NCBI GenBank assembly: GCA_965219415.1 | Contig: CBDCNP010000002.1 | Span: 2,496,001 to 2,560,000, forward strand | Source: Candidatus Marinacidobacterales bacterium | GTDB taxonomy: Bacteria; Acidobacteriota; Vicinamibacteria; Marinacidobacterales; DATDRI01 | DNA length: 64,000 nt | Direction: 5' to 3' | Shown: piece after piece, positions 15,130 to 22,613 of the stretch | How the letters are laid out: each line of letters opens with the position of its first letter | Numbering within the stretch: position 1 is the first letter of the stretch | Program-made: the position numbers and the translations under genes | Notes under the pieces: generated by a model | What the model was told of the DNA's origin: nothing | Database searches by the model: none | Seen by the model: only the letters and a program-made list of their open reading frames with translations

Positions 15130-15939
15130 GTGGTGAGGAATTGCGATCGCCTGAGCGCCGAGGAGCTCTGGCGTTTCCATAACGACGGATTCATGGTGCC
15201 GGACTGCCGCCTGCCGCAGGACGTGGTGGCGGAGATGCGCGAAGCCTATGATGAGCTGCTGTCAGCCAATCCGGGTTTCTCCTCGGACTTCATGCTGGGG
15301 CCGCACCTGGAGACCACCGGCGCACAGGGTGTTCGGGGCTCACGACGGTGGCTCAGTTTCGTCACTCGACCCGAGCTACTCGACATGGTCGAGCAATTGA
15401 TAGGGGAGGACATTATCCTCTGGGGAACGACCATCTTCGGCAAGCCGGCGCACGGCGGCAAGGCGACTCCCTGGCATCAGGACGGCGCGTACTATCCCAT
15501 TCGACCACTCGAGACGCTGTCAATCTGGATTGCGCTCGACGACGCCGTACCGGACAACGGTTGCATGCGCTTCATCCCCGGCTCCCACAAGGACCGCAAA
15601 ATCTTTTCTCATCATTGGGAAGAGGATCAGGATCTCACGATCAACCGGGTCTGCGACTCGGAGCACTTCGACGAGGCGTCGGCGCGCGATCTAGTTCTCG
15701 CGGCCGGCCAGATCTCGTTTCACGACGTCTACATCATCCACGGCTCGCGCGCCAACCCCTCGGGCCGCCGGCGCGCGGCACTGGTGGGGCGGTTCATGCC
15801 CGGCCATTGCCACTACGACCACGAGCTGGGCCTCCGATTGGCAGAACCGCACAAGGCCCACGACTACGGCAAGCGGGCCTTGTTCCTCCTGCGCGGGCGC
15901 GACCGCTCGGGACGGAACGATTTCTCAGTCGGCCACTGA
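15130..15939 (+). CDS. phytanoyl-CoA dioxygenase (PhyH) family 2OG-Fe(II) oxygenase
   Basis: WHQDG (HxD), IWIALDD, NGCMRFIPGSH and distal IHGS motifs. Confidence 0.9.
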   Translation: MVRNCDRLSAEELWRFHNDGFMVPDCRLPQDVVAEMREAYDELLSANPGFSSDFMLGPHLETTGAQGVRGSRRWLSFVTRPELLDMVEQLIGEDIILWGTTIFGKPAHGGKATPWHQDGAYYPIRPLETLSIWIALDDAVPDNGCMRFIPGSHKDRKIFSHHWEEDQDLTINRVCDSEHFDEASARDLVLAAGQISFHDVYIIHGSRANPSGRRRAALVGRFMPGHCHYDHELGLRLAEPHKAHDYGKRALFLLRGRDRSGRNDFSVGH

Positions 15940-15994
15940 TTCTCGGGTGGGCGTAGGCCGACTGGCTGCGACCGCATCATCCCGACGCGGCGGC

Positions 15995-16162
15995 CAGTCT
16001 GAAAAGGCTATGCAGGCCGGTCTGACCACGCGACGGCTCACCTTTCGAAACATCTTCTTGGCGATGACGATTCCTTTGTGGTCGCGGATCGAGGTTTTCT
16101 TGCTCACTGGGGCGCGCAACCCGGTCTCTTCCGCACCTGAACCACTGCCCGCAGCCGCGTAG
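15995..16162 (+). pseudogene. IS1-family transposase C-terminal remnant
   Basis: AMQAGLTTRRLTFRNIF resembles the IS1-type PAMxAGLT tail; TAG 16160-16162 is followed directly by a family-A IR once the IS110 is removed. Confidence 0.65.
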
Positions 16163-16269
16163 CAACATATCTGGACTCCTCTAGTCAAGCCCCTTTCTTT
16201 CTAGTCACGCCCCTTTCTTAATAAATCTTCCATCGAAGCTGCGCATCCATCGCGTCGTGACGAGTGGGT

Positions 16270-16445
16270 CAGACTGCAAACGTATCTTCGGCCTCAGTGA
16301 GGAGCGTCTTGGGTGCTCCGGGCCATGATGGAAAATCCGCGCGCGAGGAGCCAATCACTTTGAACGACCTCTTAGGGCCAGTGTTGCTATTGGCTTGACC
16401 CCGCGCCGGTCCGACCGGTACGCCATCAGTTGGATGGGTATCGTC
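16270..16445 (-). ncRNA. putative bridge/seek RNA of the IS1111 element (boundaries approximate)
   Basis: Non-coding region downstream of the recombinase gene with segments matching the target (TAGCAACACT; AAGTG) and the donor junction (TTCCATCAT; AGATA). Confidence 0.75.
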
Positions 16446-16497
16446 GCAGCCTCTTTTGGAAGGGAAAAAGGAAAACACGAAAGTGGAGCCTCTAAAT

Positions 16498-17529
16498 CTA
16501 AGCGGCCACCGGCGACTGGAATTCACTCTCGCGGGTGGAGACGGCCCAGACGATCCGGGCGAGTTTGTTGGCGACAGCAATCACGGCCTTGTTGTGTCCC
16601 CGCGAGCGGTGGACCTTCCGAGCCCAGGCGCGGAGCTTGTCGGGCGGGCTCTTGCTGACGTTCGCCGCGCGGAGCACGGCGCGCCCGCCCTGGGTGAGGA
16701 GCATACGGAGGTAGGAGTCGCCACGCTTGGTGATGCGTCCGAGGCGGCGAATGTCGCCACTGGAGTTTTCCTTGGGAACTAGGCCGAGGTAGCTCGAGAA
16801 GCGGCGCCCCGATGGGAAGCGGCGAAGATCGCCGACGAAGCCCACGATGGCGGTCGCGGCCAGAAGTCCGATGCCGGGAATGGCGAGAAGTCGTTGGACT
16901 TCAGGAAGCTGCTTGGTGAGCGCCTTGAGCTCGTGCTCGATGCTAGCGCACTTGTCCTTGAGTTCTCGAATCTCGGAGCAGGCATCACGGAGATGCGAAC
17001 GGAGCACGTCGGGCAAATCAGAATCAGCGTCTTCGACGAGTTCGAAGAGGGCGGGCACGACGAAGTGAGCGCCCTTTGGGATGATGAATCCGAGTTCGCG
17101 CAGGAGCCCGCGTACGGCATTGATGCGTGCGGTCCGTGTGGAGAGCCATCCTGAGCGCAGGCGATGGAGCGCAGCGAGGGTGTGCTGGTGCACGGACTTG
17201 ATGGGTACGGGAAGAAGCTCCTCGTTCCTGTAGGCCTCGAGCAACGCCTTCGTGTCGGCGCGGTCGTTCTTGCTCCCGCGTCGATACGGCCTCACGAGGT
17301 GAGGTGGGAGCAGGACGACGTCGTGTCCCAACCTTCGGAACGTCCTTGCCCAGAAGTGAGCCGAGCCGCAGGCTTCGAGAAGCACGGTGGCAGCGCTCTG
17401 TTTGGCAAAGAACGACACCAATTTGGGTCGACTCACACGGAGTTGCTTGGACACCTTCCCCGCTTCTCCCGAGATGGCAATCTCGAAGACGTTCTTTGCA
17501 AGATCCACAGCGATTGTCGTATCTTTCAT
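16498..17529 (-). CDS. IS110-family DEDD recombinase
   Basis: AVDLAKNVF, LEACG, KNDRADT, IPGIG, YLGLVPKENSSG and ITKRGDSYLR motifs; RBS AGGAGG. Confidence 0.95.
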   Translation of the reverse strand: MKDTTIAVDLAKNVFEIAISGEAGKVSKQLRVSRPKLVSFFAKQSAATVLLEACGSAHFWARTFRRLGHDVVLLPPHLVRPYRRGSKNDRADTKALLEAYRNEELLPVPIKSVHQHTLAALHRLRSGWLSTRTARINAVRGLLRELGFIIPKGAHFVVPALFELVEDADSDLPDVLRSHLRDACSEIRELKDKCASIEHELKALTKQLPEVQRLLAIPGIGLLAATAIVGFVGDLRRFPSGRRFSSYLGLVPKENSSGDIRRLGRITKRGDSYLRMLLTQGGRAVLRAANVSKSPPDKLRAWARKVHRSRGHNKAVIAVANKLARIVWAVSTRESEFQSPVAA

Positions 17530-17624
17530 TCGGACTCCTCCTTTTCGATGCGTATTCGACTGACTTTGGCACATCGATGCCGTCTATGGAGGAGTCCATT
17601 CCATCACTTGATGGCGGAAGCACC

Positions 17625-18080
17625 GGCAGCGAAGCCAGCGATCCTTGTGTGGTTGAATCGACGACACACTTGGGCTGCCTTCTCGAGCCAGCGGGCGACG
17701 GTGTTCCAGGCAATCCCTTTGGTCCGGGAAATCGAGGAAATGCTGACACCCTCGACTCTGAGAGCGGTGACCCCATCGAAAGTAGCTCTTCGATGTTGGA
17801 GACGGTAGTAGGGCGTGCCTTTCGTCGAGGAGAACGTCTTTCCGCACTCGCCGCACCGGTATCGACGGAGTTTCCCGGACCTCGTTCTGTAGAATCCGTT
17901 GTGAATAATGCTTCTGGAACCGACTGTTCCATACGACGAACATGCGGGATTGAGACATCTGCGATTCTTCACTTCGGCTCGGCCCTGACGATGAGAGAAC
18001 TGTGTCTTCAGAATTCTGGTTCAAACTCTAGCACGCAGACCGGTTACGGGCTGGCCGCCAACACTTAATTGCGGAAGCCC
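17625..18080 (-). mobile_element. IS1-family left end with truncated InsA-like ORF (17625-17972)
   Basis: CLNPAC...RYRCGECGKTF zinc finger plus HTH (ISRTKGIAWNTVARW); left IR GGGCTTCCGCAATTAAGTGTTGG. Confidence 0.8.
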
Positions 18081-18214
18081 ATTTTGGCTGTAATTTAATG
18101 CAGCGTAAAGTCTTAGCGTCATCTCACCAACACTTAATGACGGAAGCACCCACGTTCTCCTGGCCGACCGACCAGATAACGGCTGCCTGATCAACAGCGA
18201 ATGGCGCAAGCACC
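18081..18214. repeat. partial family-A MITE plus an additional family-A terminus
   Basis: 18083-18150 matches the MITE half; CAACAGCGAATGGCGCAAGCACC ends at 18214. Confidence 0.8.
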
Positions 18215-18340
18215 CGGGGTGGCCGTCAGGCCGTGGAAAACTTGACAGTATCCCCCTGGCCGCATCCGACTGGACGGAGCCGATCTTCCCGAGATGAAGC
18301 GCTGCAGCATTCGGTTACAATCCTTTTTTAGGAGGGCAAG

Positions 18341-18673
18341 ATGGCTGCAGGATTTCGCTTCGTCTGTAGTGGATGCGACCATAACATCGAGGCGTGGGAT
18401 GAAGGGAACCCCTACTATATTAACGAGAACGGCAAGAAGCAGTACGCTTACCATCCCGACGTTTTGCGGAACCGCTGCATCGGCAACGACTCTCCACACC
18501 TCTGCCTGTCGTGTGGACATGAGTTCATGGTGGATTCAGAGGTACCGATTGCGGCTTGTCCAAAGTGCAAGGCGGGTAAGATCGTGGACACGATGGAGTT
18601 GAGCGGCAAAGCATGTCCCTACTGTAAGAGAGGGGTGTTCGTCGTTGACCCGGGGTGGAGGCCCATATCGTGA
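18341..18673 (+). CDS. small multi-CxxC zinc-ribbon protein
   Basis: 110 aa with four CxxC pairs; AGGAGG RBS at ~18330. Confidence 0.75.
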   Translation: MAAGFRFVCSGCDHNIEAWDEGNPYYINENGKKQYAYHPDVLRNRCIGNDSPHLCLSCGHEFMVDSEVPIAACPKCKAGKIVDTMELSGKACPYCKRGVFVVDPGWRPIS

Positions 18674-22234: not shown

Positions 22235-22613
22235 GGGCGGATGCTAGCAGGTGGTGCTTCTGCCATCAAAGGCGGCTACGCCGCTAGAGGCATTTGAATG
22301 CCCAAGGGGAGCCATCCAACCCCTGTATCCCGCGGCATCACCGAACGTTCGCTCTTGTGCTCGATATAGTCCAGTCTAATGATGGACTTCCGGGTGCGGA
22401 GGTCACTGCCCGTAGCTCGCCCCGCAGTCGATTTGAGCCAGCCGTGCGCGCCCCCGGTGGGCCTGTCGCTCGCCACCCGAAGCCCAGGGGTCGGCGGATT
22501 CCAAGGGCGTCTAAGCTGTTGATTTGTGGTCTATGTCAAAAAAGCCGAGTCCTGGCACAAGACGCGGTGCTGTCGTCGTTTCGCCCTCGTTTCTGTGTTA
22601 CTTTCTTCCCGCC

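What the first reader, a model, noticed from the sequence alone, without database searches (positions are those of the whole stretch)
16160..17624. IS1111 element with a readable bridge/seekRNA aimed at the terminal repeat of an IS1-family element
Seen: removing the element plus one CA core copy restores TAGCAACACTTGATGGCGGAAGCACC. This is the stop codon of an IS1-like transposase remnant followed by a family-A terminal repeat (others read CCAACACTTAATGGCGGAAGCACC; a sibling variant is at 22253). The minus-strand 3' non-coding region contains four matching segments. TAGCAACACT (16389-16380) matches the empty target 10/10. AAGTG (16360-16356) matches the other target strand. TTCCATCAT (16333-16325) matches the predicted circle junction TTCCAT-CA-TATCT 9/9. 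AGATACG (16287-16281) matches the other donor strand 6/7. Established: IS110/IS1111 recombinases use non-coding RNA loops that pair with target and donor. Inference: this element is an RNA-guided parasite of IS1 ends. It would disable its host IS and could exploit a multi-copy site (about 18 family-A termini here, although most match the guide only over CAACACT).
Basis: partly seen in the sequence, partly recalled or inferred. Interest (0 to 1): 0.85.

Follow-up and report, generated by a model that had tools for sequence, protein, structure and literature searches.

The report
IS1111 element targeting IS1-like ends
This is a small mobile DNA element of a known RNA-guided type (IS110/IS1111 family) whose guide RNA is aimed at the end of another, very abundant mobile element in the same genome; it is a clear new example of a known behaviour.

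Summary
Window 16168-17604 is a 1437-bp IS110-family element of the IS1111 type, with its transposase on the minus strand and a 330-nt 3' non-coding region. The genome holds 29 complete, near-identical copies. Every right end found abuts CA-CTTGATGGCGGAAGCACC, the outer 20 bp of the right inverted repeat of a 1.2-kb IS1-like element and its about 245-bp derivatives.

Among 439 near-cognate termini, 28 of 107 TAGCAA-type sites are occupied, against 2 of 329 of the other classifiable sites. Occupied host copies are scattered among empty ones, so the insertions were independent.

The target-matching segments lie on the two sides of an internal loop between conserved helices. The donor-matching segments flank a second conserved helix. 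In four relatives' lineages (46-98% transposase identity) the loop sequences change together with the flanks.

The mechanism rests on homology and covariation; no RNA or activity data exist. Precedents are IS4321/IS5075 in Tn21 inverted repeats and IS1383 in IS1384 inverted repeats. It is therefore a new member of a known kind. That it disables its host is untested.

The parts
16006..16167 (+). Remnant of the host IS1-like element (host positions 1021-1182). It holds the 3' end of the host transposase frame, its TAG stop (16160-16162), the inner part of the right inverted repeat (CAA) and the left copy of the CA core (16166-16167).
   Evidence: blastn against a full-length 1200-bp host copy, 95% over 162 bp; host ORF ends ...PLPAAA*
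16168..17604 (-). IS1111-type insertion sequence, 1437 bp without the CA core. This copy has a 6-bp deletion next to the right subterminal repeat; 24 of 29 complete copies in the genome are 1443 bp.
   Evidence: Junctions read; 34 blastn rows in the genome; lengths
16498..17529 (-). Transposase/recombinase gene, 343 aa (DEDD RuvC-like N-terminal domain and C-terminal Tnp domain with GLVPKENSSG).
   Evidence: Pfam PF01548 45.7 bits and PF02371 85.5 bits; NCBIfam NF033542 'IS110 family RNA-guided transposase' 302.9 bits, cutoff 140; 27 copies in the genome encode the identical protein
16267..16416 (-). Predicted bridge/seekRNA core of about 150 nt: a target-binding stem-loop followed by a donor-binding stem-loop. 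The RNA ends are not known.
   Evidence: Fold; consensus structure of 8 homologues; 93.4% of cells paired against 33-46% when partners are slid, and 6 pairs with compensatory change, 0/500 shuffles
16380..16389 (-). Left target guide UAGCAACACU, on the 5' side of the internal loop. It has the same sense as the empty site TAGCAA-CA-CT.
   Evidence: 10/10 match, 4/2000 shuffles; unpaired between helices
16356..16360 (-). Right target guide AAGUG, on the 3' side of the same internal loop. It is complementary to CA-CTT.
   Evidence: it covaries in L017 (CAGCG with CA-CTG), G040 and L039
16325..16333 (-). Left donor guide UUCCAUCAU, directly 5' of helix UGGCC/GGCCG. It has the same sense as the predicted circle junction TTCCAT-CA-T.
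   Evidence: 9/9 match, 27/2000 shuffles; donor matrix
16281..16287 (-). Right donor guide AGAUACG, 3' of the same helix. It is complementary to CA-TATCT in 6 of 7 positions (C opposite the A of the core).
   Evidence: it reads AGAUAUG (7/7) in the 94% family and AUACACG in L039, whose left end is TGTAT
16172..16181 (.). Subterminal inverted repeat TGGACTCCTC, preceded by the 4-nt terminal extension TATC (16168-16171).
   Evidence: Read; perfect 10-bp complement of 17589-17598
17589..17598 (.). Subterminal inverted repeat GAGGAGTCCA, followed by the 6-nt terminal extension TTCCAT (17599-17604).
   Evidence: Read
17605..17624 (+). Right copy of the CA core plus the outer 18 bp of the host right inverted repeat (CTTGATGGCGGAAGCACC). 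Sequence beyond 17624 differs at every copy.
   Evidence: 33 of 34 blastn rows end in this 20-mer or a 1-nt variant of it, followed by unrelated DNA
17624..18078 (-). Fragment of a second IS1-like copy (host positions 4-458, N-terminal zinc-finger/HTH part) in the opposite orientation, abutting the first copy's inverted repeat.
   Evidence: blastn 93.6% over 455 bp; ORF 17604-17972

Best explanation
Window 16168-17604 is an intact IS1111-type member of the IS110 family.

Proposed cycle:
1. The element excises as a circle whose abutted ends read TTCCAT-CA-TATCT. This junction probably creates a promoter (TTGACT, 18 nt, TGGAAT).
2. Transcription produces the 343-aa DEDD/Ser recombinase and, from the 330-nt 3' non-coding region, a two-loop guide RNA.
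3. In the first loop, UAGCAACA(CU) pairs with the bottom strand of the target TAGCAA-CA-CTT and AAGUG pairs with its top strand.
4. In the second loop, UUCCAUCAU and AGAUACG pair with the two strands of the circle junction.
5. Recombination at the shared CA places the element, always in one orientation, 20 bp inside the right inverted repeat of a 1.2-kb IS1-like element, just after that element's stop codon.

The repeat is present in over a hundred copies, on full-length elements, on about 245-bp derivatives and on remnants. This gave the element a multi-copy landing site, and it underwent a recent burst in this genome.

Shown here: the sequence matches, their position in conserved loops, covariation with flanks, and site-specific occupancy. 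Inferred: expression and processing of the RNA, its binding, and the chemistry.
For: Family:
- Pfam PF01548 and PF02371 both match.
- NCBIfam 'IS110 family RNA-guided transposase' scores 302.9 bits against a cutoff of 140.
- The protein is 45.9% identical over 99% of its length to an ISPa25-family transposase.
- The C-terminal domain aligns with the solved IS621 and ISCro4 recombinases.

Site specificity in the genome:
- There are 29 complete copies.
- 33 of 34 blastn rows end in CA-CTTGAT(G/A)GC(G/A)GAAGCACC followed by unrelated DNA.
- Among 439 termini with CACTT in register, occupancy is TAGCAA 28/107, CGCCAA 1/83, CACCAA 0/179 and TACCAA 0/31. Fisher's test for TAGCAA against the rest gives 1e-16, and for TACCAA against TAGCAA 6e-4. 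Copies are kin, so these p-values overstate the case.

Independence of insertions: the nearest relative of an occupied host copy is an empty copy in 19 of 28, an occupied copy in 6, a tie in 2 and none in 1. Left flanks fall into at least 3 sequence families.

Structure: the target guides sit on the two sides of an internal loop between helices that are conserved down to 46% protein identity. 93.4% of cells are paired against 33-46% in slid controls, and 6 pairs change on both sides, 0/500 shuffles.

Covariation (longest exact matches to own target against others' targets):
- Window/98%/94% family: 9-10 + 5 for own, 4-6 + 3-5 for others.
- L017: 10 + 3 for own, 3-4 + 4-5 for others.
- G040: 9-10 + 5 for own, 3-5 + 3-5 for others.
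- L039: 8 + 8 for own, 3-5 + 3-5 for others.
- Donor guides follow the ends: UUCCAU/TTCCAT, UCCCAU/TCCCAT, UCUCAU/TCTCAT, and AGAUA/TATCT, AUACA/TGTAT.

In relatives, two clean insertions lie outside any inverted repeat, at sites that still read AGCAA-CA-CTTGA (L019 and L020).

Literature, read in named sections and passages:
- IS1111-type elements have subterminal repeats, a 3' non-coding region and a seekRNA whose top-strand complement comes first (PMC11187229, sections 4, 6, 9). The order is the same here.
- Bridge RNAs were predicted in the right end of 93% of IS1111 elements, and rG:dT pairs are tolerated (PMC11208160, passages).
Against: - No RNA, circle-junction or transposition data exist for this element. 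Only contigs, not raw reads, were available.
- The right target guide is only 5 nt and the right donor guide matches 6 of 7. Neither is significant alone.
- The 176-nt fold is not more stable than shuffles (z = -1.37, 20 of 200 shuffles fold as well).
- Rfam 15 gave no relevant match at E <= 1.
- No helix closing the donor loop on its basal side was established.
- For the 54%-identity relative L091 I could not reconcile guides and flanks; its ends are unresolved.
- Several relatives' copies (L015, L016, L023, L033, L001, L009, L010, L026) have flanks that do not match the guide and abut partial copies of the element. These are read as rearrangements, not proven.
- The guide's core reads CG where the DNA reads CA in L017 and in the right donor guide of the window. 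This is unexplained.
- The window copy carries a 6-bp deletion beside a subterminal repeat, so this particular copy may be less active.
Confidence: 0.88

Rival explanations
1. Passenger model. One ancient insertion into one IS1-like copy was followed by spread of the composite through the IS1-like transposase. The constant flanks would then reflect the host's transposition, not targeting.
For: The outer 20 bp of the host repeat stay at the tip, so the composite might still be mobilisable. 6 of 28 occupied host copies have another occupied copy as nearest relative.
Against: - Occupied hosts belong to at least 3 unrelated inner-flank families and include full-length elements, derivatives of under 600 bp and remnants.
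- The nearest relative is an empty copy in 19 of 28, about what random labelling gives.
- One insertion lies in a CGCCAA-type terminus.
- Relatives have insertions outside any inverted repeat, at sites matching the guide (L019, L020).
- Guides covary with different targets in L017, G040 and L039.
Confidence: 0.04
2. Protein-read target. The recombinase or a host factor recognises the inverted repeat directly, and the matches in the non-coding region are leftovers or chance.
For: No RNA data here. Two of the four matches are short. Fold stability is unremarkable.
Against: - The 10-mer and 9-mer matches are rare in shuffles: 4/2000 and 27/2000.
- The loop sequences change with the targets while the helices are kept, across 46-98% protein identity.
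- RNA guidance has been shown experimentally for four IS1111-type and one IS110-type element (PMC11187229, abstract and sections 4 and 9).
Confidence: 0.05
3. The element is now a fossil. It was RNA-guided in the past, but the copies in this genome no longer move.
For: No polymorphic or circle-junction evidence could be obtained. The window copy has a 6-bp deletion.
Against: - 27 copies encode an identical, uninterrupted 343-aa protein.
- Full-length copies (25 rows aligned over query positions 1-1421 or 1-1434 of 1434) are at least 99.9% identical, and two more at 99.4%.
- The guide loops are identical in all 29 complete copies.
- The element was not found in the 7 other genomes of the same family. 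This points to a recent arrival and burst.
Confidence: 0.15

Closest known systems
[quoted passage not shown]
   Same: An IS1111-type element with subterminal repeats that inserts at one position and in one orientation inside the terminal inverted repeat of another transposable element, a multi-copy target.
   Different: The host here is a 1.2-kb IS1-like insertion sequence and its short derivatives, not a Tn3-family transposon. The organism is an uncultured Acidobacteriota-type lineage (relatives' record titles). The guide and target sequences differ.
IS1383, whose specific target is the inverted repeats of IS1384 in Pseudomonas putida H (Muller, Lauf & Hermann 2001; title only, in the reference list of PMC11208160)
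   Same: One insertion sequence aimed at the inverted repeats of another. This is the same ecological relation as here. Durrant et al. cite it among the papers on subterminal inverted repeats.
   Different: I could not read the paper. No sequence comparison was made. The scale here is far larger: 28 of 107 cognate ends occupied in one genome.
ISPa25 / ISKpn4 / ISPst6 (IS1111 family, attC-targeting) and ISEc11, ISPa11 with demonstrated seekRNAs (PMC11187229)
   Same: The transposase is 45.9% identical over 99% of its length to an ISPa25-family transposase. It also shares the 3' non-coding region, the order of matches (complement of the top strand first), the GL-P----SG motif and a size of 343 aa.
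   Different: The target differs. The subterminal repeat is 10 bp rather than the usual 11-13. The terminal extensions are 6 and 4 nt (core not counted), against the 7 and 3, or 6 and 3, stated in the paper.
IS621 bridge RNA (IS110 group; PMC11208160, PMC13626964)
   Same: A two-loop logic: a target loop and a donor loop, each with a left and a right guide overlapping a shared core dinucleotide, and tolerance of rG:dT.
   Different: The RNA is encoded 3' of the recombinase gene, not 5'. The core is CA, not CT. The subterminal repeats are long. The protein is alignable only in the C-terminal domain (E = 9e-8).

Membership tests
IS110 family (DEDD recombinases) | N-terminal DEDD RuvC-like domain and C-terminal Tnp domain | tested here: met
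   PF01548 scores 45.7 bits (cutoff 29) and PF02371 scores 85.5 bits (cutoff 21.3). NF033542 scores 302.9 bits (cutoff 140).
IS110 family (DEDD recombinases) | Sequence-specific, orientation-specific insertion with only a shared core dinucleotide at both junctions | tested here: met
   CA is present at both junctions. The site and orientation are the same at all 33 right ends found.
IS1111 group | Subterminal inverted repeats (usually 11-13 bp in PMC11187229; 7-17 bp in PMC11208160) | tested here: met
   A perfect 10-bp repeat, TGGACTCCTC at 16172-16181 and 17589-17598. This is inside the wider range and one short of the 'usual' range.
IS1111 group | Asymmetric terminal extensions beyond the repeats (7 and 3, or 6 and 3 bp) | tested here: inconclusive
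   The extension is 6 nt (ATGGAA) on the transposase-proximal side and 4 nt (GATA) on the other, with the CA core not counted. It is asymmetric but does not match the stated numbers. The count depends on how the core is assigned.
IS1111 group | The longer non-coding region lies downstream of the transposase gene | tested here: met
   330 nt downstream (16168-16497) against 75 nt upstream (17530-17604).
IS1111 group | Transposase of 330-350 aa with a GL-P----S(t)G motif | tested here: met
   343 aa, with GLVPKENSSG in the translation. The motif definition comes from PMC11187229, section 6.
IS1111 group | seekRNA with the complement of the top strand 5' of the complement of the bottom strand | tested here: met
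   In transposase orientation, UAGCAACACU (complement of the top strand) precedes AAGUG. The rule comes from PMC11187229, section 9.
IS1111 group | The RNA is made, co-purifies with the transposase and is required for movement | not testable with these tools
   Only contigs of public runs could be laid.
Bridge RNA (two-loop guide) | Target and donor guides in separate loops framed by conserved helices, covarying with target and donor | tested here: met
   The basal closure of the donor loop was not established. There was no Rfam match.
IS1 family (the host element) | Transposase matches the curated IS1 model above its cutoff | tested here: not met
   NF033558 scores 85 bits against a cutoff of 100. 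It is the best-scoring family (E = 6e-24). Pfam DDE_Tnp_IS1 scores 22.0 against 24.1. Hence 'IS1-like'.
IS1 family (the host element) | Terminal inverted repeats of about 23-26 bp bounding a short element with an N-terminal zinc-finger/HTH and a DDE domain | tested here: met
   28 copies of 1198-1212 bp are bounded by GGTGCTTCCGC.../...GCGGAAGCACC, with one long frame of up to 391 codons between stops; one search lists a 424-aa ORF with an upstream GTG start in L071, and I took the gene from 210 (355 aa). The IS1/IS1595 zinc domain is weak (20 bits, cutoff 28).
IS1 family (the host element) | Direct target duplication at the ends (the 8-9 bp figure for IS1 is recalled, not from a call) | tested here: not met
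   No duplication is visible in the 12-nt flanks of 28 full-length copies or of 12 listed short copies. These were inspected by eye only.

The most novel reading that the evidence does not exclude
The element is an obligate hyperparasite of one IS lineage. It follows the IS1-like element between genomes, and it either rides its copies or selectively damages the autonomous ones.

Observations in favour:
- The five other genomes of the order with the close element (G039, G048, G052, G053, G054) all hold the target repeat, with 7 to 125 hits each. Eight genomes hold the repeat without the element.
- The element is 98% identical at the protein level in a different bacterial family, yet was not found in 7 genomes of its own family.
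- It is under-represented in full-length hosts, 3 of 28 occupied against 28 of 79 empty (p = 0.015). It is possibly over-represented in short derivatives, 13 of 28 against 20 of 79 (p = 0.056).

If true, this would be a natural case of RNA-guided control of an IS expansion.
Probability: 0.2. Interest if true: 0.55.

Novelty: new member of a known kind. Interest (0 to 1): 0.33.

Why it matters
This genome works as a natural specificity screen for an IS1111-type guide. It offers 439 near-cognate sites differing at one to three guide positions, with occupancy of 26% for the perfect match and at most about 1% for the others. Close relatives supply a set of naturally reprogrammed guides: four guide/target pairs in one alignable scaffold. 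That is useful material for people engineering IS1111-type recombinases, which are less studied than IS621. It also documents transposon-on-transposon parasitism in an uncultured marine lineage. It does not open a new kind of mechanism.

Tried and rejected
1. Rfam scan of 15500-18500 at E <= 1. It returned only two chance-level hits (a miRNA and a snoRNA model) and no bridge-RNA family.

2. Single-sequence folds. The 176-nt fold shows the target loop, but its energy is not unusual (z = -1.37). The 333-nt fold gives long-range pairs that I do not trust.

3. RNAalifold also paired the two donor guides with each other and cols 4-5 with 97-98. I treated these as by-products of guides that overlap the same core and left them out of the pair count. 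An outer helix GGUCGGAC/GUCUGACC is possible by eye in the window and in G040 but was not tested formally.

4. L091 (54% identity, G054). Its ends could not be fixed and its loop sequences did not match the candidate flanks. It is unresolved and was not counted for or against.

5. Public runs. All runs were Logan contigs.
- Contigs from two marine-sediment libraries on record as RNA (X17, X18) lie on parts of the transposase gene, for example 16516-16716 and 16925-17211, and barely on the non-coding region. The tool warns that this does not show transcription, and I draw nothing from it or from uncovered parts.
- No circle-junction joint was listed.
- The X15 and X18 joints inside the non-coding region have short sides (21-23) and come from metagenomes at 92% likeness. 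I do not interpret them.
- No habitat is inferred.

6. A first donor-guide matrix used a faulty pattern and picked segments inside the gene, so its donor half is void. One search crashed on my pattern. One search is the valid version.

7. The junction promoter is a consensus match only (9 of 12, against 7 of 12 at best in the linear copy).

9. Supplementary files of the papers were not opened. The supplementary target logos and bridge-RNA tables of PMC11187229 and PMC11208160 might already list an element with this target.

10. Searches for precedents were only. I do not claim that an IS1-end-targeting IS1111 element is absent from print.
Full report
THE OBSERVATION

The sequence is as described. 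On the + strand the left junction reads ...GCG TAG CAA CA|TATCTGGACTCCTC... The right junction reads ...GAGGAGTCCATTCCAT|CA CTTGATGGCGGAAGCACC. The only letters shared by the two junctions are CA. The element is therefore 16168-17604 (1437 bp) plus one CA. Removing 1439 bp restores TAGCAACACTTGATGGCGGAAGCACC. The four segments lie exactly at the stated minus-strand coordinates.

Against shuffles of the 330-nt non-coding region, the 10-mer TAGCAACACT is reached in 4 of 2000 and the 9-mer TTCCATCAT in 27 of 2000. The 5-mer and the 6/7 match mean nothing alone. The window holds 9 matches to the 23-mer repeat at up to 3 mismatches, with 0 expected. It holds 19 hits to the terminal 11-mer at up to 1 mismatch. 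Only the occupied site is of the TAGCAA type.

WHAT THE ELEMENT IS

The minus-strand ORF (343 aa from the ATG at 17529) matches Pfam DEDD_Tnp_IS110 and Transposase_20. It also matches NCBIfam 'IS110 family RNA-guided transposase' at 302.9 bits, cutoff 140.

It is 45.9% identical over 99% of its length to an ISPa25-family transposase on a plasmid. ISPa25 is treated as an IS1111-type element in PMC11187229 (section 9). The C-terminal domain aligns with the solved IS621 and ISCro4 recombinases.

The element has these features:
- perfect 10-bp subterminal inverted repeats (16172-16181 and 17589-17598)
- terminal extensions of 4 and 6 nt
- a long non-coding region downstream of the gene (330 nt, against 75 nt upstream)
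- the GLVPKENSSG version of the GL-P----SG motif

These are the IS1111 hallmarks listed in PMC11187229 (sections 4 and 6). The one exception is that the extension lengths are not exactly the stated 7 and 3 or 6 and 3.

WHAT THE TARGET IS

The genome (8.05 Mb) holds about 600 termini of the ...ATGGCGGAAGCACC type (603 hits at up to 2 mismatches). Twenty-eight copies of 1198-1212 bp are bounded by GGTGCTTCCGC... and ...TAGCAACACTTGATGGCGGAAGCACC. Each carries one long frame (up to 391 codons between stops) ending at that TAG.

The protein's best family is NCBIfam IS1, at 85 bits and E = 6e-24, below the 100-bit cutoff. Pfam hits are weak. I therefore call the element IS1-like.

There are also about 245-bp derivatives with the same ends. 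No target duplication is visible at either kind.

In the window the host copy is a 162-bp remnant (host positions 1021-1182). Its outer repeat abuts an inverted fragment of a second copy (host positions 4-458).

GENOME-WIDE TEST

blastn finds 34 rows for the element. Of these, 29 are complete copies: 24 of 1443 bp, 2 of 1423, and one each of 1437, 1444 and 1463. The window copy is the 1437-bp one, with a 6-bp deletion beside the right subterminal repeat.

Thirty-three of the 34 rows end in the same 20-mer, or a 1-nt variant, followed by unrelated DNA. The remaining row is a fragment of the left, non-coding end (query 1-285) without a right end.

I counted all termini with CACTT in register (439):

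| Left half of site | Occupied | Empty |
|---|---|---|
| TAGCAA | 28 | 79 |
| CGCCAA | 1 | 82 |
| CACCAA | 0 | 179 |
| TACCAA | 0 | 31 |

A further occupied site is a nested copy. Three right ends had no left end within 1.7 kb. Fisher's test for TAGCAA against the rest gives 1e-16. The single-mismatch class TACCAA against TAGCAA gives 6e-4. Copies are related, so these numbers overstate the case.

The inner flanks of occupied sites fall into at least three sequence families. The nearest relative of an occupied host copy is an empty copy in 19 of 28, an occupied copy in 6, a tie in 2 and none in 1. This is what independent insertions predict, and not what spread of one composite predicts.

THE RNA

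In the fold of 16270-16445, helices GCGCGGGG/CCUCGCGC and GCCAAU/AUUGGC enclose an internal loop. Its 5' side is AGCAACACU and its 3' side is UUCAAAGUG, capped by a short hairpin. UUCCAUCAU and AGAUACG lie directly 5' and 3' of a second helix, UGGCC...GGCCG.

An alignment of eight homologues at 46-100% protein identity keeps these helices. Cells are 93.4% paired, against 33-46% when partners are slid. Six pairs change on both sides, and 0 of 500 shuffles reach this. The structure was derived from the same alignment and the sequences are kin, which flatters these figures.

The order of the matches is the one reported for IS1111-type seekRNAs: the complement of the top strand comes first, in transposase orientation (PMC11187229, section 9).

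COVARIATION WITH TARGETS

Relatives came (70 loci; the record titles name Candidatus Marinacidobacterales MAGs and a few others) and (7 of 55 genomes of the order).

- The 98% family (G048) has the same guides and sits in the same repeat. All 15 loci I printed have the repeat on the 5' side, and 11 of the 15 have TGTTGCTA on the 3' side. The other four abut partial copies of the element.
- The 94% family has the same target guides. Of the 12 loci I printed, 6 have the repeat and 6 do not. Two of the latter (L019, L020) have clean flanks that rebuild AGCAA-CA-CTTGA sites outside any repeat.
- L017 has loop sequences GAUAACAAUCG and CAGCG, and its flanks read GATAACAAT-CA | CA-CTGGAG.
- G040 (61% identity, two copies) has GCAACUGCGU and GUCCGGACG. 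Its flanks read (G)CAACTG-CG | CA-TCTGGAC, inside a palindromic repeat hit in both orientations.
- L039 (46% identity) has AAGGAUCG and GUCUUUG. Its flanks, in transposase orientation, read GGTCTT-TG | CG-ATCCTT.

A matrix of longest exact matches gives own-target values of 9-10+5, 10+3, 9-10+5 and 8+8. Foreign targets give 3-6 + 3-5. Donor guides follow the element ends in the same way. The 94% family needs two wobble pairs in the left donor guide. For L091 the ends stayed unresolved.

AN UNEXPLAINED DETAIL

At the second core position several guides read G where the DNA reads A. This applies to the right donor guide of the window, and to both target guides of L017. In G040 and L039 the junction on the non-coding-region side reads CG while the other reads CA. 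An rG:dT pair would explain the left guides; such a pair is tolerated in IS621 (PMC11208160). The C-opposite-A in the right guides remains unexplained.

MECHANISM

By analogy with the experimentally studied members, the steps are as follows (PMC11187229; PMC11208160; PMC13626964, abstract and section 4).
1. The element excises to a circle.
2. The abutted ends probably create a promoter. TTGACT, 18 nt, TGGAAT scores 9 of 12 across the junction, against 7 of 12 at best in the linear copy.
3. The recombinase and the RNA are made.
4. The RNA's two loops pair with both strands of the repeat and of the junction.
5. Recombination occurs at CA.

All of this is inference for this element. No raw reads were available.

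DISTRIBUTION

The close element occurs in G000 and in five genomes of another family of the order (G039, G048, G052, G053, G054). It was not found in 7 genomes of G000's own family. All copies in G000 are nearly identical, and 27 encode the identical protein. This suggests recent arrival and a burst.

The target repeat, at up to 2 mismatches, occurs in 15 of 55 genomes. These include all five genomes with the close element (7 to 125 hits each) and eight genomes without any relative of the element.

Occupied sites are full-length hosts in 3 of 28, against 28 of 79 for empty sites (p = 0.015). They are short derivatives in 13 of 28, against 20 of 79 (p = 0.056). These points feed the bolder hyperparasite reading but do not establish it.

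COMPARISON AND NOVELTY

An IS1111-type element aimed at the terminal inverted repeats of another transposable element is known. IS4321 and IS5075 target Tn21-family repeats. IS1383 targets the repeats of IS1384. For both I saw titles in reference lists only. RNA guidance of the family has been known since 2024.

This is therefore a new member of a known kind. It has an unusually clean natural specificity record and a handy series of naturally reprogrammed relatives.

The claim that the insertion disables the host IS is not tested. The host stop codon is intact and the outer 20 bp of the repeat are displaced by 1.44 kb.

Noticed in passing
window 16181-16220; all G000 copies: A 20-nt unit near the non-coding end of the element (CTAGTCA[A/C]GCCCCTTTCTT) varies in copy number: 1 unit in 2 copies, 2 units in 26 and 3 units in 1. 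The G048 relatives have one unit. The unit nearest the end carries the TTGACT that would serve as the -35 of the junction promoter.
   Followed up: partly
window about 17586 (table 4): The window copy alone lacks 6 bp (TGTCAG on the + strand) next to the right subterminal inverted repeat. 27 other copies have it, and one has a variant.
   Followed up: yes
L001, L009, L010, L026 (G048); L013-L016, L023 (G053): Full copies are followed by one to three tandem partial copies of the 3' part of the same element (for example query 1022-1405 repeated in L001). Their 3' flanks lie inside the element's own gene. This may be self-targeting at weak pseudo-sites or recombination between copies. G000 has one such case at C3:3315127-3316831.
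   Followed up: no
L078 / L084 (G040): The 61%-identity relative sits in a palindromic repeat (CGCAACTGCG, 8 nt, CGCAGTTGCG) whose spacer resembles the element's own left end. The two copies are in opposite orientation relative to the surrounding repeat of about 500 bp.
   Followed up: partly
G000 genome-wide: There is a very large expansion of one IS1-like lineage and its short derivatives, with about 600 termini in 8 Mb and several terminal-repeat subfamilies (CACCAA, CGCCAA, TACCAA, TAGCAA). No visible target-site duplication was seen at the 28 full-length and 12 short copies inspected.
   Followed up: partly
window 15130-15939 (+): The ORF just left of the host remnant (269 aa) looks by eye like a phytanoyl-CoA dioxygenase-type protein. 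This was not searched. The IS remnant begins about 65 bp after its stop.
   Followed up: no
window 17624-18078 and 18128-18150: IS fragments are nested here. A second IS1-like copy, truncated at its position 458, abuts the first copy's repeat, and a further terminus lies 50 bp beyond its left end. This region is an IS graveyard.
   Followed up: partly
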